DNA of 42,894 nt, from positions 1-42,894 of the forward strand of contig CAYJWH010000003.1 in NCBI GenBank assembly GCA_964373875.1, given 5' to 3'. This DNA comes from an uncultured Candidatus Saccharibacteria bacterium. Lineage in GTDB: Bacteria > Patescibacteriota > Minisyncoccia > Sungbacterales > HO2-52-23. Made by a program: the position numbers and the translations under genes. The notes under the pieces were generated by a model, which did no database searches, was not told the DNA's origin, and saw nothing but the letters and a program-made list of their open reading frames with translations. Below, piece by piece: positions 14,820-38,758 of this stretch. How positions within the stretch are numbered: position 1 is the stretch's first letter; the number at the start of each line of letters is the position of its first letter.

Positions 14820-15413
14820 ATGTACGAACCAAAAAATTATGATCATTTGATAGGCACTCCCGGCTTTAGCGACCAGCTCCTTAAAAATCACTTTATCCTA
14901 TATCAGGGATATGTGAAAAATGTGAATACGATTTTACAGGAGCTCGAATCTATGTCCAAAGAAGGAAAAACAGGAACTCCCGCGTATGCCGAACTCCATA
15001 GAAGGTTTGGATGGGAATTTAACGGCATGCGCCTGCATGAATTGTATTTTGGCAACATGAAAAATGGGGGATCAAAACTCGATCCTGCCTCCAAACTGTG
15101 GGCGCAAATGGATAAAGATTTTGGCCCTAAACCTGCTTGGAGGAATGATTTTAAAGCGGTTGGCGCCATGCGCGGCATCGGCTGGGCTGTTTTATACTAT
15201 GATCCTGAAAGCAAAGAACTTTTTAACGTGTGGGTAAACGAGCATGACGTGGGGCATCTTGCCGGCGCCGTGCCATTGCTTGTCCTCGATATTTTTGAGC
15301 ATGCCTACGTTTTGGATTACGGGTTGAAACGCGCTGATTACATCGAGGCCTTTTTTGAAGCGATTGATTGGAGTATCGTGGAAACGAGGCTAAACCTCTA
15401 TAGCGGACTATAG
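14820..15413 (+). CDS. Fe/Mn-family superoxide dismutase; last 7 codons and the stop are supplied by REP sequence
   Basis: DIFEHAYVLDYG...DYIEAFF.AIDW C-terminal signature; NHF and RLHELYF His ligands. Confidence 0.8.
   Translation: MYEPKNYDHLIGTPGFSDQLLKNHFILYQGYVKNVNTILQELESMSKEGKTGTPAYAELHRRFGWEFNGMRLHELYFGNMKNGGSKLDPASKLWAQMDKDFGPKPAWRNDFKAVGAMRGIGWAVLYYDPESKELFNVWVNEHDVGHLAGAVPLLVLDIFEHAYVLDYGLKRADYIEAFFEAIDWSIVETRLNLYSGL
15382..15403 (-). repeat. REP copy (degenerate 5' arm), loop CTAAA
   Basis: aaacGAGG-CTAAA-CCTCTATAG; forms a doublet with 15408-15430. Confidence 0.7.
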
Positions 15414-15430
15414 AGGTTTAGCCTCTATAG
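15408..15430 (+). repeat. REP copy (perfect)
   Basis: CTATAGAGG-TTTAG-CCTCTATAG; contains the SOD stop TAG 15411-15413. Confidence 0.95.
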
Positions 15431-26338: not shown

Positions 26339-26347
26339 TGTGGATAA
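26339..26347 (-). promoter_or_regulatory. Perfect DnaA-box 9-mer (TGTGGATAA on the + strand)
   Basis: Exact match, abutting the REP at 26348. Confidence 0.3.
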
Positions 26348-26370
26348 CTATAGAGGTTTAGCCTCTATAG
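26348..26370 (+). repeat. REP copy (perfect) spanning the RAYT stop codon
   Basis: CTATAGAGG-TTTAG-CCTCTATAG. Confidence 0.95.
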
Positions 26371-27042
26371 TGGATCTATGTATCCAGTGAGGAGGTTGAT
26401 ATCCTTCAAGGCCCATTCTTTGGTAAAGGATTCGTATTGAGATGAGTTGTATAGTTCACCCATCACCTCTTTATTGAGAATTAGCCCATAATTATTTTGC
26501 CCAATATAGTCAGAAAAACTTGACCACGGATAGCTTTTCACAAATTTATAGGACTCGTTCCAGTTTTTTACACCCTTTTCTTTCCAGTTAGGTTCTTTAA
26601 GTTCAAGGGGATTAAGATGAATGTATCGGGTAAGGTGAGTCAGATAGGTTTCTTCATCAATATGAATCGCCTTAAATGTACCTTGGAAGAGGGAACCGCT
26701 ACGTTGATATTTTGTATTGAAATACATAGTGTAGCCGGTACCCAGTTTTTGCATAAATTTTGAAATTCCGTTGTCTACCCTCTGCCGCAGTAATAGGTGA
26801 AAGTGATTAGACATAAGGCAAAAGCTCAAAATATCTACCATCATTTCCCGTTTCCTCTTCTCTATAGAGGCTAAACCTCTATAGTAGAACTGGGAATTTA
26901 GGAGCGGCTGGGTGTCGTTGCATGCATAGAGGAGATAGAGGAATCGTTGGTAGTCGTTCTTCTTGGTAAAAGTTATCCTCTTATCAACCCCGCGATTATA
27001 CACGTGGTAGTATTGCTCATTACTTAATTCAACTTTTCGCAT
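26365..27042 (-). CDS. REP-associated tyrosine transposase (RAYT; IS200-like Y1 HUH enzyme)
   Basis: YHVYNRG, HUH motif NHFHLLL, catalytic Tyr in TRYIHLNP; flanked by REPs; ATG at 27042 preferred over GTG 27051. Confidence 0.85.
   Translation of the reverse strand: MRKVELSNEQYYHVYNRGVDKRITFTKKNDYQRFLYLLYACNDTQPLLNSQFYYRGLASIEKRKREMMVDILSFCLMSNHFHLLLRQRVDNGISKFMQKLGTGYTMYFNTKYQRSGSLFQGTFKAIHIDEETYLTHLTRYIHLNPLELKEPNWKEKGVKNWNESYKFVKSYPWSSFSDYIGQNNYGLILNKEVMGELYNSSQYESFTKEWALKDINLLTGYIDPL
26862..26884 (-). repeat. REP copy (perfect) inside the RAYT coding sequence
   Basis: CTATAGAGG-CTAAA-CCTCTATAG; on the coding strand encodes YYRGLASI. Confidence 0.95.
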
Positions 27043-27050
27043 ACCTACCA

Positions 27051-27073
27051 CTATAGAGGTTTAGCCTCTATAG
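27051..27073 (+). repeat. REP copy (perfect) 8 nt upstream of the RAYT start
   Basis: CTATAGAGG-TTTAG-CCTCTATAG. Confidence 0.95.
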
Positions 27074-27092
27074 TCAAGTCTCTATAGTCAAG
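27066..27092 (+). repeat. Tandem duplication of the REP 3' arm plus flank (CTCTATAGTCAAG x2)
   Basis: Copies at 27066-27078 and 27080-27092. Confidence 0.8.
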
Positions 27093-35037: not shown

Positions 35038-35040
35038 TCA

Positions 35041-35063
35041 CTATAGAGGTTTAGCCTCTATAG
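35041..35063 (+). repeat. REP copy (perfect; stem extended to 13 bp by flanks ATCA/TGAT)
   Basis: CTATAGAGG-TTTAG-CCTCTATAG, 3 nt after the TPR gene stop. Confidence 0.95.
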
Positions 35064-35138: not shown

Positions 35139-36566
35139 ATGCTTGTGACTCTTTTTGTTTTTATTTTCGCGCTATTCCCGTTGGCGGTTCTACACGCGGC
35201 TGAAGGAGATATAATTATTACGGAAATCATGTATGATCTTCCGGACGCTGACGGCATGAGAGAGTGGGTCGAAATCTATAACAGCGGAGCGGGGCCGGTA
35301 ACGGTTATCGGCGGATCTGGAAATAATACCTGGCGTTTACACGAGATCCACTCATCGGGACCGCACAACCATACGTTTGGAGCCGAGCCATCACAAGGAA
35401 GCATGACTCTATCCTCCGGGCAGTATGCCGTGATTGCTCAAAACGGAGAAGCATTTTTGGCGGATAATCCAAATTTTAGCAAGACAATTCTTATTTCTTC
35501 AGCTTTTTCTCTTACCAATACCAGCCAGACACTTGGTTTGCGAATTGGTTCATCGGGTACTGTCTGGAGCGGGGTAAATTACGCAAGTGAACTTGGCGCG
35601 CAAGGGGATGGGAAGTCGCTTCAGCTTATTGGTTCACAATGGGTCGCGGCATCTTCAACGCCCGGCGCTTTCAATAGTATTGAGACCACGCCCTCACCAT
35701 CTTCCTCCGAAGAAGGCGTGAGTGCGCCTCCGTCGGCTAGTGGAGCATCCGTAACAACACAATCAAAAATAACAATTGTATTTCCTTCCATCAAGGCCAA
35801 CTCCGGAGGAAACCGGACGGCAGTTGCGGGATCGCTCATTGAGTTCAAAGGTAACGCTTTAGGGCTAAAAGACGATCCGTTGGACAACGCTCGCTTTTGG
35901 TGGAATTTGGGGGATGGCAACTCAATCGAGGGAAGATCAATCTTGCATACTTTTAGAATTCCCGGAACTTACACGGTGGGCCTGCATGTGTCTTCTGGAG
36001 AATATGCCGCTTCGGACTATATAACCGTATCGGTTATTCCAAACCAACTGCGGGTCGCGGATGTTATACTTTTAGAAGACGGATATATCAAACTGGTGAA
36101 CAAAGAGAAAACCGAGATAGACCTTGGCGGATGGATTTTAGAAGATTCTTCCGGAAAGACGTTCACGATTCCCGTGAAAACCAAAATCGGTCCGCAAGCG
36201 GAAATTGCCCTGTTGAATTCGGTAACTTCCCTTTTTAAGTTCGTTGATTCCTCACGCGCGATTATCCGCTATCCAAACGGTAGGGAGGCCGTTAGATGGA
36301 GCGTGGATGCCAAAAGTTTAGTGTCTGACATCGGTACTACTGTTTCTCCGCGGGTTTTGACGGATGACGTCAATGTTAAAGATCGGGTGTCGGACATAGG
36401 GGAAGAAGACCCGGCGGCGGCTCCGGAACTTGTCCCCAAGCTCGGGTCGGAACAAGCCGCAGTGGCTGCCTCCGGAATAAGCTCTAAATTGTTTTTCTTG
36501 CTTGCCGCCGTTTTTAGCGTTCTCGCGTCTGTCGGCTTCTTCCTCGTCAAAAAGAAATATTTCTGA
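35139..36566 (+). CDS. Surface protein: lamin-tail domain, PKD domain, second LTD-like domain, C-terminal TM anchor
   Basis: ITEIMYDLPDADGMREWVEIYN (LTD); WNLGDGNS...GTYTVGLHV (PKD); IDLGGWILEDSSG; C-terminal hydrophobic helix. Confidence 0.75.
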   Translation: MLVTLFVFIFALFPLAVLHAAEGDIIITEIMYDLPDADGMREWVEIYNSGAGPVTVIGGSGNNTWRLHEIHSSGPHNHTFGAEPSQGSMTLSSGQYAVIAQNGEAFLADNPNFSKTILISSAFSLTNTSQTLGLRIGSSGTVWSGVNYASELGAQGDGKSLQLIGSQWVAASSTPGAFNSIETTPSPSSSEEGVSAPPSASGASVTTQSKITIVFPSIKANSGGNRTAVAGSLIEFKGNALGLKDDPLDNARFWWNLGDGNSIEGRSILHTFRIPGTYTVGLHVSSGEYAASDYITVSVIPNQLRVADVILLEDGYIKLVNKEKTEIDLGGWILEDSSGKTFTIPVKTKIGPQAEIALLNSVTSLFKFVDSSRAIIRYPNGREAVRWSVDAKSLVSDIGTTVSPRVLTDDVNVKDRVSDIGEEDPAAAPELVPKLGSEQAAVAASGISSKLFFLLAAVFSVLASVGFFLVKKKYF

Positions 36567-38758
36567 TGCAAAAACCGAAAATTCTTATCTTTACCACCTC
36601 CTACCACCCATTTATAGGAGGTGCCGAAATAGCTGTCCAGGAAATTACCAGGCGCCTGAAAGAGCGCTTTGATTTTTATATTGTAACTTCCCGATTTCGC
36701 CGTGATCTGCCCAAGAGAGAAATAAGACCGGAGGGGATCGTCCTAAGAATAGGATTTGGCAATCGGCTGGATAAATATTTGCTTATCTTAGCCCCCTTTT
36801 ACTATAGAGGTTTAGCCTCTATAGTGCTGGGGGTGGATATCTCCCAGGCGTCGGTAGCCGCGGCAATTTACAAAATTCTCAATCCAAGAACTCCTTTTGT
36901 ATTAAATATCCAATTTGGCGAGAGCGAGGAGCGGCTTTCTTCCGGACGGGCAGGAATCATATCTGTTATGTTTCGTTTTATCCTCGGCCGGGCGGACTTT
37001 GTGACGGCCATCTCGAGCTATCTTCTAAATATCGCGAGAAGCTATGGATACAAAGGGCCGGCAGGGGCAGTACCTAATGGAGTAGATGTCTCAAAATTCC
37101 AAAACACAAAACACAAATCACAAACTAATCATAAAATAGTAATTACGACCGGGAGACTAGTCCGTAAAAACGGCGTCGATATTTTAATAAAGGCGATTGC
37201 CGAGATAAAAAAAAGTATCCCGGATGTTCGGCTGCATATAGTCGGCAATGGCCTGGAACGTAAGAATCTTGAGTTGCAAGTTTCAAATTACAAACTGCAA
37301 GAAAACGTAACGTTTTTAGGCAGTGTTTCCCATGAAGAAGTTCCACGGCACTTGCATGAGGCAGACCTCTTTGTCCGTCCTTCGCGCTCCGAAGGCATGG
37401 GCAACTCTTTTATAGAGGCCCTTGCGGCCGGTCTGCCAATAATCGGAACTCCGGTGGGCGGAATTTTAGATATAATTGAGGATGAAAAAACCGGGCTTTT
37501 TTGCAATCCCGAAGATCCGCGGGATTTGGCCGAGAAAATTACTCGGCTCCTGCAAGATAAAGCTCTCTCCTCCAATATAGCGGCTCAAGGCAAAAAAATG
37601 GTTGAGGATAGATTTTCTTGGGATAAAATTGCTGAAGCATACGCCGAGTTACTATCGAGGTTTAGCCTCTATAGTGAGGCTAAACCTCTGCGTATTTTGG
37701 TCGCGACTCCGTTGCTGCCGCCGCAGATAGGAGGCCCCGCTCAATATGCCAGACATTTATCCGAAGAATTTTTAAAACTTGAACAGAAAGTAAAAGTAAT
37801 TTCTTTTGGAAAATATCTGCGTTATCCAAGCGGAATCCGCCATCTGCTTTATTTATGGGCACTTGCCATACACGCGATAAAAAGCGATCTCATATTCGCG
37901 TTGGATTATACAAGCGTTGGGTTTCCGGCGGCTATAGTTTCTCTGATTTTTAGAAGGCCACTAGTGATTAGAGTTGAAGGCGATTTTCTTTGGGAAAGCT
38001 TTGTGGAGCGCGCGCGACAGGATATAATTCTAAGGGAGTTCTATAAAAATCCTCCCTCCCTCACGCCAAAAGAAAGGCTGGTTAAATGGCTTTCGGGTTG
38101 GGTGATGCGACGTGCCTCAAAACTCGTCTTTTCTTCCGAATGGAGGCGGTCTATGGTTGTTGATGCTTATAAGATTCCTTCAGAGAAAACTTTAATAATC
38201 CGCAACGTCTTTCCATATTCGGTAGCGCTAGAGCCTAGAGCCTATAGCCTAGAGCCCAGAATTATCCTTTGGGCTGGCCGGATGCTCTACCTTAAAAATC
38301 TCCAGCGCCTGATTAGGGCATTTGCAAACATGAACGTTTCATCTTACGAACTTCATCTCGTTGGGGAAGGACCGGAGAGAAAAAATCTTGAGCGCCTCAT
38401 AAACGAATATCACGCTGGGAGCCGCATAAAATTTTTTGATTCAATGGATCACGGGAAGCTCATGGACAAACTTGCTTCTTCAACGGCAGTTGTATTGCCG
38501 TCTCTTTCCGATGTCGGCCCAAATATAGTTACCGAAGCAATTAGCGCGGGCGTACCGGTAATCATGACTAAAGAATCCGGACATGCGGAGATTTTTCATC
38601 ACAAAGTTGAGTTGGTCAATCCGTTGGATGAGGGTGATTTGCGCCGGAAACTCGAAAAATTAATGAGAGAACCCGCAGAACGAGTTGTATCCGCATTCAC
38701 GATCCGACCGTGGGTTACTGCTGCCAAAGAGTGGATTAGTTTATTTAAGTCTCTATGA
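36566..38758 (+). CDS. Fused double GT4-family glycosyltransferase (two complete GT-B units joined through a REP doublet)
   Basis: Unit 1 has the EGMGNSFIEALAAGLPIIGT motif. Unit 2 begins RILVATPLLPPQIGGPAQ right after the REP doublet and has SDVGPNIVTEAISAGVPVI. Confidence 0.8.
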   Translation: MQKPKILIFTTSYHPFIGGAEIAVQEITRRLKERFDFYIVTSRFRRDLPKREIRPEGIVLRIGFGNRLDKYLLILAPFYYRGLASIVLGVDISQASVAAAIYKILNPRTPFVLNIQFGESEERLSSGRAGIISVMFRFILGRADFVTAISSYLLNIARSYGYKGPAGAVPNGVDVSKFQNTKHKSQTNHKIVITTGRLVRKNGVDILIKAIAEIKKSIPDVRLHIVGNGLERKNLELQVSNYKLQENVTFLGSVSHEEVPRHLHEADLFVRPSRSEGMGNSFIEALAAGLPIIGTPVGGILDIIEDEKTGLFCNPEDPRDLAEKITRLLQDKALSSNIAAQGKKMVEDRFSWDKIAEAYAELLSRFSLYSEAKPLRILVATPLLPPQIGGPAQYARHLSEEFLKLEQKVKVISFGKYLRYPSGIRHLLYLWALAIHAIKSDLIFALDYTSVGFPAAIVSLIFRRPLVIRVEGDFLWESFVERARQDIILREFYKNPPSLTPKERLVKWLSGWVMRRASKLVFSSEWRRSMVVDAYKIPSEKTLIIRNVFPYSVALEPRAYSLEPRIILWAGRMLYLKNLQRLIRAFANMNVSSYELHLVGEGPERKNLERLINEYHAGSRIKFFDSMDHGKLMDKLASSTAVVLPSLSDVGPNIVTEAISAGVPVIMTKESGHAEIFHHKVELVNPLDEGDLRRKLEKLMREPAERVVSAFTIRPWVTAAKEWISLFKSL
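36802..36824 (+). repeat. REP copy (perfect) inserted in frame in GT unit 1
   Basis: Codons 36800-36823 read YYRGLASI, identical to the peptide encoded by the REP inside the RAYT gene. Confidence 0.95.
37652..37674 (+). repeat. REP copy (1 mismatch: CTATCGAGG)
   Basis: At the junction of the two GT units. Confidence 0.9.
37672..37690 (-). repeat. Degenerate REP copy (GAGG-CTAAA-CCTCT) forming a doublet
   Basis: Shares TAG with the preceding copy; reads through as SEAKPL. Confidence 0.65.
38228..38255 (+). repeat. Tandem heptamer (CTAGAGC)x4, third unit CTATAGC
   Basis: Inside GT unit 2, encoding ALEPRAYSLEP. Confidence 0.85.

What the first reader, a model, noticed from the sequence alone, without database searches (positions are those of the whole stretch)
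36800..36823. The same 24-nt REP insertion yields the identical octapeptide YYRGLASI in a glycosyltransferase and in the RAYT itself
In GT unit 1 the codons TAC TAT AGA GGT TTA GCC TCT ATA (36800-36823) are REP DNA. On the coding strand of the RAYT gene the same 24 nt in the same phase give QF-YYRGLASI-EKR. A 23-nt hairpin plus one flanking base makes 24 nt, so the frame is preserved. Two independent in-frame survivors in the same phase suggest either selection for the tolerated frame or a phase-specific insertion mechanism.
Basis: seen in the sequence. Interest (0 to 1): 0.7.

Follow-up and report, generated by a model that had tools for sequence, protein, structure and literature searches.

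The report
In-frame REP hairpins in two genes
A 25-base palindromic repeat gives the same peptide in a sugar-transferase gene and in its own transposase-like gene because only one of its six reading phases lacks a stop codon, and the copy inside the transposase gene is a conserved, family-wide feature rather than a chance insertion.

Summary
TACTATAGAGGTTTAGCCTCTATA occurs exactly at 36800-36823 (+) in a double GT4 glycosyltransferase ORF and at 26863-26886 (-) in a RAYT-like Y1/HUH transposase gene. Both copies read YYRGLASI.

The shared phase needs no special mechanism. Five of the six phases of this REP contain TAG or TAA. A third coding copy at 37650 sits in another phase and is open only because its TAG is TCG.

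The two copies are not equivalent "survivors". In the RAYT, NSQFYYRGLASI is the family consensus. Of 87 homologous genes from other genomes, 58 carry an exact copy of their own flanking hairpin inside the CDS. These copies lie only at two loops, and the hairpin sequence differs between genomes. Orthologs at 53-60% amino-acid identity keep the REP codons nearly unchanged (21/22, against 43% elsewhere).

In the GT, the peptide is absent from 26 homologs. It fills a hypervariable helix end and turn that is shorter than in relatives. One ortholog has a different palindrome at the same two GT sites.

Verdict: the phase coincidence is trivial. The RAYT-internal cognate REP appears undescribed and is a new variant of a known system.

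The parts
36800..36825 (+). REP copy inside GT4 unit 1. The reported 24-mer is 36800-36823 and the 25-nt palindrome is 36801-36825. It encodes Y79-I86 (YYRGLASI).
   Evidence: The AF2 model of GT unit 1 (pLDDT 93.3) places residues 79-86 at the C-cap of helix 69-79, the turn 80-85 and the first residue of strand 86-90. The peptide is absent from 26 homologs and lies in a hypervariable, length-variable segment.
26862..26886 (-). REP copy inside the RAYT-like gene. It encodes Y53-I60 (YYRGLASI) and is inverted relative to the other six copies.
   Evidence: It lies in the loop between helix 28-40 and strand 69-76, where the AF2 model dips to pLDDT 61. The same segment is the consensus of the family.
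26365..27042 (-). RAYT-like Y1/HUH transposase gene (225 aa). It has HUH at H80-F-H82 and the catalytic Tyr at Y140 in YIHLNP.
   Evidence: Pfam Y1_Tnp 43.7 bits against a cutoff of 23. The only NCBIfam hit is REP_Tyr_transpos, 42.6 bits, below its cutoff of 80. The Foldseek top hit is 4er8_A, E. coli TnpAREP bound to a REP (E 5.8e-6, TM 0.72). Invariant residues are listed.
27049..27073 (+). REP flanking the 5' end of the RAYT gene. It ends 6 nt upstream of the ATG.
26346..26370 (+). REP flanking the 3' end of the RAYT gene. The RAYT stop codon TAG lies inside it.
36566..38758 (+). 730-aa ORF made of two fused GT4 glycosyltransferase units.
   Evidence: All invariant residues of the GT unit 1 family are retained. 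Some relatives are fused in the same way, and one has two genes overlapping by 4 nt.
37650..37688 (+). REP doublet forming the GT1-GT2 linker (LSRFSLYSEAKPL). It consists of a full REP with TAG>TCG (37650-37673) and a partial inverted REP (37676-37688).
   Evidence: As single-stranded DNA it folds into a 13-bp hairpin, -13.6 kcal/mol.
15386..15430 (+). REP doublet (partial inverted copy plus full copy) overlapping the 3' end of the Fe/Mn superoxide dismutase gene. It supplies the tail RLNLYSGL and the stop codon.
   Evidence: The Pfam Sod_Fe_C domain ends at residue 190 of 197. The fold has -19.2 kcal/mol.
35039..35063 (+). Intergenic REP copy directly after the stop of the TPR gene and upstream of the LTD/PKD gene.

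Best explanation
The 25-nt palindrome is the cognate hairpin (REP) of the RAYT-like Y1/HUH enzyme encoded at 27042-26365.

Shown:
- The gene is bracketed by this REP, and 7 copies lie in the 43-kb window.
- Only one of the six reading phases of the REP is free of stop codons. An intact coding copy can therefore only read YRGLASI, and only in the orientation that matches the gene's strand.
- Both YYRGLASI copies sit in segments that are hypervariable in sequence and length in the two protein families. The AF2 models place them at a loop (RAYT) and at a helix end plus turn (GT).
- The RAYT copy is not a sporadic hit. In this RAYT clade an in-frame copy of the genome's own flanking hairpin occupies one of two fixed loops in about two thirds of genes. 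Its sequence follows the local REP from genome to genome, with compensatory stem changes.
- The RAYT copy is held constant at the nucleotide level in orthologs whose other codons have diverged.

Inferred:
- REP copies are generated on single-stranded DNA by the RAYT, as for E. coli TnpAREP and IS200/IS605.
- Copies landing in genes are removed unless they are in the open phase and in a structurally permissive place.
- The copy inside the RAYT gene is an old resident. The process that keeps the flanking and dispersed REPs uniform also keeps it identical to them. That process could be gene conversion or RAYT-mediated replacement in place, possibly reinforced by a function as a RAYT binding site.
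- The GT copy is a lineage-specific example of the same filter. It replaces part of a dispensable helix and turn. The site seems to be a long-lived or preferred REP site, because an ortholog carries a different palindrome at the same nucleotide boundary.
For: - Phase filter: five of six phases contain TAG or TAA. In the window plus 20 metagenome loci that hold the exact REP there are 38 REP-like sites. Every intact copy inside a long ORF reads (x)YRGLASI: four RAYT genes and the GT. A near-variant with two changes reads NYRGFTSI, in the same phase, in a 96-codon ORF that is probably spurious. The only coding copy in another phase has TAG>TCG.
- Family trait, hairpins: NSQFYYRGLASI is the consensus of 34 aligned homologs. 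At this site a perfect stem of at least 9 bp occurs in 29/87 homolog genes, against 8/281 control segments of the same genes (p about 1e-13).
- Family trait, match to flanks: 32 of 36 internal hairpins recur within about 70 nt of the start or stop of the same gene. 58/87 genes hold an exact 14-mer or longer of their own 200-nt flanks. These lie at site 1 (48), site 2 (14) or both (4), and never elsewhere in the gene. Equal-length DNA further out gives 16/160. Three loci were inspected by eye.
- Fixed position: the hairpin centre lies a median of 56 nt (IQR 51-64) before the F74 anchor codon.
- Nucleotide-level constraint: in three orthologs with 53-60% amino-acid identity, codons inside the REP are identical in 21/22 cases, against 140/327 at other conserved residues (p = 5e-7).
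- Permissive sites: RAYT loop with pLDDT 61; GT helix end and turn; variable columns in both alignments. E. coli RayT lacks both loops and has no internal REP.
- GT site: ortholog P0121 has ATGTTCAACAC-CGG-GTGTTGAACAT in-frame at both GT sites. At site 1 the left boundary is identical to the nucleotide.
Against: - No activity of this enzyme on this hairpin has been shown.
- The source genome is not available, so genome-wide copy number and the full phase census are unknown. Only 7 copies are seen here.
- In many homolog loci the hairpin is seen only at the RAYT gene (two flanks plus the internal copy) within 20 kb. That looks more like an IS with terminal hairpins than a proliferating REP family.
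- Site 1 and site 2 carriers are interleaved in a distance clustering. Repeated gain at hot spots can therefore not be separated from ancient residence with loss.
- 29/87 genes have no exact internal copy, so the feature is dispensable.
- For the GT, only 2 of 6 orthologs examined at DNA level have hairpins at the sites. Independent insertion into the two most permissive places is a fair alternative.
Confidence: 0.7

Rival explanations
1. Repeated fresh insertion at hot spots. The RAYT acts mainly in cis. It would keep inserting or replacing hairpins in the DNA next to and inside its own gene, for example on the non-template strand exposed during its own transcription. It would also do so in existing hairpin sites elsewhere. 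Only copies in two permissive loops and in an open phase survive. The internal copies would then be young and recurrent rather than old and maintained.
For: - Internal copies are usually identical to the flanks: an exact 16-mer in 43/87 genes.
- Two alternative sites exist, sometimes both in one gene, and they are interleaved in the clustering.
- The length of the host segment varies from 25 to 52 aa and contains degenerate extra copies, e.g. L052 QLYETKQLYEAKPRK.
- Gene bodies are enriched about 6-fold over DNA 250 nt further out.
- Different REPs share the same nucleotide boundary in the GT orthologs.
Against: - Four RAYT orthologs at 53-60% identity have the same REP at the same codon in the same phase. 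This is easier to explain by inheritance.
- Within the main cluster the reading phase at site 1 is constant (E-V/A-x-P/L) while the stems change in a compensatory way. That suggests change in place.
- No common target sequence is seen at the 5' flanks of the seven window copies.
Confidence: 0.25
2. The internal REP is a functional cis element of the RAYT gene. It could be a binding site through which the enzyme represses its own expression, either as a DNA roadblock or on the mRNA hairpin. It could also be a protected master copy that keeps enzyme and hairpin co-inherited. This can be true together with the best explanation.
For: - Prevalence is 67% across very divergent genomes, restricted to two sites.
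- Nucleotide-level conservation exceeds protein constraint.
- The internal copy co-varies with the flanking hairpins.
- E. coli TnpAREP is reported to be auto-inhibited and strongly down-regulated (PMC3479197), so tight control of such enzymes has precedent.
Against: - A third of homologs lack it, and some show decayed half copies, e.g. L001 GGLASI.
- Its orientation relative to the flanks is not constant.
- No expression or binding data exist.
- Gene conversion alone could give the same conservation.
- A count of G.T against A.C mismatches, meant to detect RNA-level selection, had too few events.
Confidence: 0.3
3. The two copies are independent recent 24-nt insertions made by a mechanism that inserts REPs in a defined codon phase.
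For: Both copies are exact and in the same phase.
Against: - The stop codons in the other five phases explain the phase.
- The copy at 37650 is in a different phase with a repaired stop.
- REPs at the SOD and RAYT 3' ends are in stop-giving phases.
- The RAYT copy is shared by distant orthologs.
- The GT segment is shorter, not 8 aa longer, than in homologs.
- A DNA-level transposase has no known way of sensing a reading frame (general knowledge).
Confidence: 0.03
4. Peptide first. YYRGLASI is a conserved functional motif of the RAYT protein, and the dispersed REPs, including the GT copy, are derived from this piece of coding sequence.
For: The motif is conserved in many homologs. The gene-internal copy is the one best protected from decay.
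Against: - Across the clade the encoded peptide changes completely with the local hairpin (YRGLASI, EAKPRK, EVGLRK, VRSPTPN, YGSPTTI ...). The palindrome and its identity to the flanks stay.
- The copy can sit at a second, unrelated loop.
- The region is a low-confidence loop that is absent from E. coli RayT.
- Synonymous positions are frozen, which protein function does not require.
Confidence: 0.07

Closest known systems
REPtron: REP-associated tyrosine transposase (RAYT / TnpAREP) with its REPs (Nunvar 2010 PMC2817692; Ton-Hoang 2012 PMC3333891; Messing 2012 PMC3479197)
   Same: It is a small Y1/HUH protein with an HUH motif and a Tyr in a YIxxNP motif. Its best structural match is E. coli TnpAREP bound to a REP. 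The gene is bracketed by copies of a short palindrome that also occurs elsewhere in the genome, often at 3' ends of genes.
   Different: - It is only a distant relative: NCBIfam REP_Tyr_transpos scores 42.6 bits against a cutoff of 80.
- It is 60 aa longer than E. coli RayT, with two extra loops.
- The REP has no 5' GTAG/CGTC tag.
- Both flanking copies have the same loop orientation in the window.
- The gene itself carries an in-frame copy of its REP. E. coli rayT has none. No mention of such a copy was found in seven core RAYT/REP papers or in the intragenic-REP table of Di Nocera 2013.
Intragenic in-frame palindromic repeats: Rickettsia palindromic elements (RPE) and intragenic GTAG/CGTC REPs (Di Nocera 2013, PMC3733652)
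   Same: A dispersed palindromic repeat is translated as part of apparently functional proteins, as single units or dimers. Some copies lie at ORF ends. The GT copies and the SOD tail fit this description.
   Different: - The unit here is very short (8 codons).
- The phase is dictated by stop codons in the five other phases.
- One host is the element's own transposase-like gene, at a site conserved across a large clade.
- In the GT the element replaces native sequence rather than only adding to it.
IS200/IS605 insertion sequences (IS608, ISDra2)
   Same: The protein has the Y1_Tnp domain and a related fold. The gene lies between subterminal hairpins. In many homolog loci the hairpin is seen only around the gene.
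   Different: - The left, right and internal hairpins are the same sequence.
- There is no tnpB.
- The Tyr motif is of the RAYT type (YIHLNP).
- The hairpin also occurs alone at other loci in the window.
Species-specific REP/BIME sequences at conserved intergenic positions, and the gene-conversion idea for REP homogeneity (Higgins 1988, cited as ref 29 in PMC6006769; own knowledge of the enterobacterial BIME literature)
   Same: The occupied sites persist while the repeat sequence is specific to each genome. Here this holds at the RAYT loops and at two sites of the GT gene.
   Different: Here the sites are inside coding sequence and are read in-frame. That adds a stop-codon and protein-structure filter.

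Membership tests
RAYT / TnpAREP (REP-associated tyrosine transposase) | HUH metal-binding motif | tested here: met
   H80-F-H82. Both His are invariant in 34 homologs.
RAYT / TnpAREP (REP-associated tyrosine transposase) | Catalytic Tyr in the RAYT-type motif Y-I-x-x-N-P | tested here: met
   The motif is YIHLNP. Y140, H142 and N144 are invariant. It aligns with YIYINP of E. coli RayT.
RAYT / TnpAREP (REP-associated tyrosine transposase) | Gene flanked on both sides by the REP it is associated with | tested here: met
   REPs lie at 27049-27073 and 26346-26370. The same arrangement is seen in most homolog loci.
RAYT / TnpAREP (REP-associated tyrosine transposase) | The two flanking REPs are in inverted orientation (Nunvar 2010) | tested here: not met
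   Both flanking copies have the TTTAG loop on the + strand. Orientation is defined only by the 5-nt loop, because the stem is a perfect palindrome. In homolog loci both arrangements occur.
RAYT / TnpAREP (REP-associated tyrosine transposase) | Curated sequence model (NCBIfam NF047646 REP_Tyr_transpos) above its cutoff | tested here: not met
   The score is 42.6 bits against a cutoff of 80. It is the only NCBIfam hit. A profile search of PDB sequences gave no hit.
RAYT / TnpAREP (REP-associated tyrosine transposase) | Fold of TnpAREP | tested here: met
   The AF2 model has pLDDT 84.5. The Foldseek top hit is 4er8_A (E 5.8e-6, TM 0.72 on the target), ahead of IS608 and ISDra2 TnpA.
RAYT / TnpAREP (REP-associated tyrosine transposase) | Binds and cleaves its REP on single-stranded DNA | not testable with these tools
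   This needs biochemistry.
REP (repetitive extragenic palindrome) | Short hairpin-forming palindrome repeated in the genome | tested here: met
   It is a 25-nt perfect palindrome. There are 7 copies against 0 expected. The DNA fold has -8.4 kcal/mol, z = -8.7.
REP (repetitive extragenic palindrome) | High copy number genome-wide (classically >100) | not testable with these tools
   Only the 43-kb window is available. The source genome was not found in either collection. Only 20 metagenome stretches hold the exact 23-mer.
REP (repetitive extragenic palindrome) | 5' GTAG or CGTC tag (Di Nocera superfamilies) | tested here: not met
   All copies begin nACTATAG. No GTAG or CGTC head is present.
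In-frame intragenic palindromic element (RPE-like) | Member of a dispersed repeat family that lies inside an intact ORF | tested here: met
   GT copies are at 36800 and 37650, and the RAYT copy is at 26863.
In-frame intragenic palindromic element (RPE-like) | Absent from orthologs (secondary insertion) | tested here: inconclusive
   GT: the peptide is absent from 26 homologs, but one ortholog has another palindrome at the same place. RAYT: the element is present in orthologs, so it is not a recent insertion.
In-frame intragenic palindromic element (RPE-like) | Located in a structurally permissive, surface segment | tested here: met
   The RAYT loop 41-68 has a pLDDT dip. In the GT the peptide covers a helix C-cap, a turn and the strand start in a high-confidence model, in length-variable alignment columns. 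These are predicted models only.
GT4 glycosyltransferase (GT-B fold) | Glyco_transf_4 and Glycos_transf_1 domains with family-invariant residues | tested here: met
   Pfam gives E 3e-74 with two units. All 40 invariant columns of alignment A2 are present in the window protein, including the E276/E284 pair.

The most novel reading that the evidence does not exclude
In a large, mostly Patescibacteria (CPR) clade of RAYT-like enzymes, the gene carries an in-frame copy of its own recognition hairpin at one of two fixed loops. This copy would be a functional part of the system, either an autoregulatory binding site or a protected master copy that keeps enzyme and REP co-evolving. More generally, REP-occupied sites, including sites inside ordinary genes such as the GT, would persist over long times while the REP sequence is overwritten in place.
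Probability: 0.35. Interest if true: 0.8.

Novelty: new variant of a known kind. Interest (0 to 1): 0.6.

Why it matters
The coincidence that was reported has a simple cause, so it should not be read as evidence for frame-aware transposition. The follow-up matters more.

How REPs and their RAYTs stay matched, and how RAYT activity is restrained, are open questions. Here the recognition hairpin is embedded in the enzyme's own coding sequence. It is frozen at synonymous sites and changes together with the flanking hairpins across dozens of genomes. This gives a natural handle on both questions. The internal, flanking and dispersed copies can be compared in binding, cleavage and expression assays.

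It also shows that very short palindromic repeats contribute loops, linkers, C-terminal tails and stop codons to proteins in small CPR genomes. Annotation and protein-family alignments there will contain repeat-derived peptides.

Tried and rejected
- Source genome: neither the GTDB genome scan with the RAYT alignment (best hit 61% identity) nor the metagenome scan with the exact REP (blastn against the window) returned it. A genome-wide phase census was therefore impossible. A census of 38 REP-like sites in the window plus 20 metagenome loci was used instead.
- Clean-insertion test: alignment with homologs shows no +8-aa gap pattern in either protein. The "24-nt insertion" model was dropped.
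- RNA-level versus DNA-level selection: counting G.T against A.C mismatches next to the internal stems gave only 8 events, 1 against 1. This is uninformative.
- Orientation rule: the orientation of the internal copy relative to the flanks is not consistent across loci. For hairpins with 3-nt loops, orientation differs by a single base, so it carries little weight.
- Common target sequence: none is seen at the 5' side of the seven window copies.
- PDB sequence search with the family profile: no hit. The fold search was needed.
- First literature search: the terms were too loose and the results irrelevant.
- 96-codon ORF with NYRGFTSI in L085/L088: it overlaps the REP directly upstream of that locus's RAYT gene and is probably not a gene.
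- Third protein-database search and the representative-library search: not used, because short peptide queries cannot reach significance there.
Full report
**1. The observation**

The 24-mer TACTATAGAGGTTTAGCCTCTATA is present exactly at 36800-36823 on the + strand and at 26863-26886 on the - strand. Five further copies carry one mismatch each (15406, 26346, 27049, 35039, 37650). None is expected in dinucleotide-preserving shuffles.

The first copy lies in a 730-aa ORF (36566-38758, +) made of two GT4 glycosyltransferase units and reads LAPF-YYRGLASI-VLGVD. The second lies in a 225-aa ORF (27042-26365, -) with a Y1_Tnp domain and reads NSQF-YYRGLASI-EKRKR.

Aligning the seven copies shows that the repeat unit is a 25-nt perfect palindrome, ACTATAGAGG-TTTAG-CCTCTATAGT. 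As single-stranded DNA it folds with -8.4 kcal/mol, z = -8.7. The description is therefore correct, except that the unit is not "23 nt plus one base".

**2. Why the phase is the same**

I translated the palindrome in all six phases:
- TTTAG-loop orientation: TIEV*PL*, L*RFSLYS and YRGLASI.
- Opposite orientation: TIEAKPL*, L*RLNLYS and YRG*TSI.

Only YRGLASI is open. Any copy that survives inside an intact gene must be in this phase and in the orientation matching the gene's strand. This also explains why the RAYT copy is the only one of the seven that is inverted.

The window holds a direct counter-example to a phase-specific mechanism. The copy at 37650-37673 lies in the same GT ORF in phase L*RFSLYS. 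Its single mismatch to the consensus is the A>C that turns TAG into TCG. Together with a partial inverted copy it forms the whole GT1-GT2 linker, LSRFSLYSEAKPL.

REPs in stop-giving phases are also used as gene ends. The RAYT stop codon lies inside the REP at 26346. The SOD gene ends in a REP doublet that adds RLNLYSGL* after the end of the Sod_Fe_C domain.

In the window plus the 20 metagenome stretches that contain the exact 23-mer there are 38 REP-like sites. Every intact copy inside a long ORF reads (x)YRGLASI: four RAYT genes and the GT. A near-variant with two changes reads NYRGFTSI, in the same phase, in a 96-codon ORF that is probably spurious. The only coding copy in another phase is the repaired one at 37650.

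**3. The host of the second copy**

The 225-aa protein has these features:
- the HUH motif (H80, H82) and a Tyr in YIHLNP (Y140), all invariant in homologs;
- Pfam Y1_Tnp above threshold;
- REP_Tyr_transpos as its only NCBIfam hit, but below the curated cutoff (42.6 against 80 bits);
- a confident AF2 model (pLDDT 84.5) whose best PDB match is E. coli TnpAREP bound to its REP (4er8_A, E 5.8e-6), ahead of the IS608 and ISDra2 transposases.

The gene is bracketed by the REP on both sides. I call it RAYT-like: a distant relative that behaves like a REPtron, not a certified member of the curated family.

**4. The RAYT copy is a family trait, not a chance survivor**

Homologs have the same length as the window protein, and NSQFYYRGLASI is the consensus of the alignment. 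Variants such as HYRGLASI, YYRGFASI and YYQGLTSI occur down to about 55% identity.

I fetched 80 loci with homologs from GTDB genomes. Most are Patescibacteria, with some Omnitrophota, Nitrospirota and others. At the aligned position most genes carry a perfect palindrome, but a different one in different genomes:
- L025: TACAGAGG-TTTAA-CCTCTGTA
- L008: TTACGAGGC-TAA-GCCTCGTAA
- L012: CCGCTGTTCGGAGT-CCG-ACTCCGAACAGCGG
- L040: TATGGTAGT-CCG-ACTACCATA

The main counts are:

| Test | At the site / in the gene | Control |
|---|---|---|
| Perfect stem of at least 9 bp | 29/87 genes | 8/281 equal-length segments of the same genes |
| Internal hairpin recurs within about 70 nt of the gene's start or stop | 32/36 | - |
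| Exact 14-mer or longer of the gene's own 200-nt flanks inside the CDS | 58/87 | 16/160 equal-length stretches 250 nt further out |

Searching for flank k-mers in the gene body revealed a second internal site directly after the catalytic YIHxNP motif, e.g. L057 NYRGSTSIE. The 58 positive genes split into site 1 (48), site 2 (14) and both (4). No copy lies anywhere else in the gene. I checked three loci by eye. The hairpin centre sits a median of 56 nt (IQR 51-64) before the F74 anchor codon.

In three orthologs that share the window's REP but are only 53-60% identical in protein, 21 of 22 codons inside the REP are identical. At other conserved residues 140 of 327 are identical (p = 5e-7).

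So the constant feature is a DNA palindrome identical to the gene's flanking hairpins, not a peptide. The encoded peptide changes with the palindrome (YRGLASI, EAKPRK, EVGLRK, VRSPTPN ...). E. coli rayT has no internal copy and lacks both loops.

**5. The GT copy**

YYRGLASI is absent from 26 aligned homologs, the best at 61% identity. It lies between the conserved DKWLLP and LWGxDISQ blocks, where homologs have 18-35 unalignable residues. The window has only 12 (LAPFYYRGLASI). The REP-coded stretch therefore replaces native sequence and is not a simple +8-codon insertion.

The AF2 model of GT unit 1 is confident (pLDDT 93.3). It puts residues 79-86 at the end of helix 69-79, the turn 80-85 and the first residue of strand 86-90. 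All family-invariant residues are kept, so the enzyme is probably functional.

One finding was unexpected. The closest ortholog, P0121 (locus L081), carries a different perfect palindrome, ATGTTCAACAC-CGG-GTGTTGAACAT (peptide VQHRVLN), in-frame at the same two places:
- Site 1: it starts at the identical nucleotide after ...TTTT and is followed by a degenerate second copy.
- The GT1-GT2 junction.

Four other orthologs have no hairpin at these places, and in one of them GT1 and GT2 are separate genes overlapping by 4 nt. Either these two positions are long-lived REP sites whose sequence was overwritten, or they are the two most permissive spots and were hit twice.

**6. Mechanism**

Shown:
- the anatomy described above;
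- the stop-codon filter;
- the permissive location of both copies;
- the clade-wide, flank-matching, nucleotide-conserved internal copy.

Inferred from the family (TnpAREP, IS200/IS605):
- The enzyme recognises the hairpin on single-stranded DNA and generates or replaces copies.
- Copies in genes survive only in the open phase and in tolerant segments.

The internal RAYT copy stays identical to the flanks. That needs either homogenisation (gene conversion or replacement in place) or selection for recognition by the enzyme. Within the main cluster the site-1 phase is constant (E-V/A-x-P/L) while the stems change in a compensatory way, and a flip of a 3-nt loop needs only one base change. This favours evolution in place. 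The interleaving of site 1 and site 2 carriers, together with the length variation, leaves room for repeated re-insertion.

A regulatory or "master copy" role is plausible but untested. A third of genes lack an exact copy, and some show decayed halves.

**7. Comparison with what is known**

REPs flanking RAYT genes are established, and so are REP-like palindromes translated inside genes: the Rickettsia RPEs and the intragenic GTAG/CGTC REPs (PMC2817692, PMC3733652). The GT copies, the SOD tail and the REP-borne stop codons are new examples of that known kind.

I found no mention of a REP inside a RAYT coding sequence in any of these sources:
- Nunvar 2010, Ton-Hoang 2012, Messing 2012, Di Nocera 2013, Bertels 2017, Quentin 2018 and Corneloup 2021;
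- the supplementary files of Di Nocera 2013 held as text, which include the table of intragenic REPs and contain no occurrence of 'transposase'.

No paper in the library linked REPs with Patescibacteria. This is absence of evidence in a limited library, not proof of novelty.

**8. Verdict**

- Its proposed significance (phase coincidence) is explained by stop codons and is ordinary.
- The claim of two independent insertions is wrong for the RAYT and doubtful for the GT.
- The internal cognate REP of this RAYT clade is the point of interest, and I rate it a new variant of a known kind. The apparent persistence of REP sites with sequence turnover inside a GT gene adds to it, but rests on a single ortholog pair.

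Noticed in passing
window 37650-37688: The GT1-GT2 linker (LSRFSLYSEAKPL) is made entirely of a REP doublet. The ORF stays open only because the REP's TAG is TCG. Relatives are either fused without a hairpin, fused with a different palindrome, or have two genes overlapping by 4 nt (L104). REPs may therefore have taken part in making or remodelling the fusion.
   Followed up: partly
window 15386-15430 (3' end of ORF 14820-15413): The Fe/Mn superoxide dismutase gene ends in a REP doublet. The doublet supplies the last 8 residues (RLNLYSGL) after the end of the Pfam domain, and also the stop codon. The doublet folds as an 18-bp hairpin (-19.2 kcal/mol), like a REPIN.
   Followed up: partly
window 26346-26370 and 27049-27090: The RAYT stop codon TAG lies inside the 3' flanking REP. 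The 5' flanking REP ends 6 nt before the ATG and is preceded by a partial direct repeat (GACTATAGAGA). Both flanking copies are inverted relative to the internal copy, so long-range pairing across the 5' part of the gene is possible.
   Followed up: no
L081 262-286, about 290-312 and 1162-1186: GT ortholog P0121 carries a different perfect palindrome (ATGTTCAACAC-CGG-GTGTTGAACAT, peptide VQHRVLN) at the same two positions as the window's REPs. There is a degenerate second copy at site 1. The left boundary at site 1 is identical to the nucleotide.
   Followed up: yes
L057 10468-10490; also L024, L027, L042, L047, L054, L056, L061, L075, L077: There is a second in-frame internal REP site in RAYT homologs, directly after the catalytic YIHxNP motif. 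Four genes (L032, L048, L058, L068) have copies at both sites, inverted relative to each other.
   Followed up: yes
L043 1332-2018 and 2257-2943: The whole unit (REP, RAYT with internal REP, REP) is duplicated in tandem. Several other loci (L039, L058, L069, L070, L031) hold two different RAYT homologs.
   Followed up: no
window, whole length: Six of the seven REP copies have the same orientation (TTTAG loop on the + strand), and cumulative GC skew rises across the whole window. This would fit strand-biased insertion, as in IS200/IS605, but seven copies are too few for significance.
   Followed up: no
L036 6147-6746: This RAYT homolog has a perfect 10-bp internal hairpin (ATTCGGAAGT-CGG-ACTTCCGAAT) but no matching copy in its flanks or elsewhere in the 7.2-kb locus.
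   Followed up: no
L106 1638-2135 (E. coli K-12 rayT): The classical RAYT has no internal hairpin and no flank k-mer (K of 10 or more) inside the gene. It lacks both loops that host REPs in the CPR clade, so those loops may themselves be REP-derived.
   Followed up: partly
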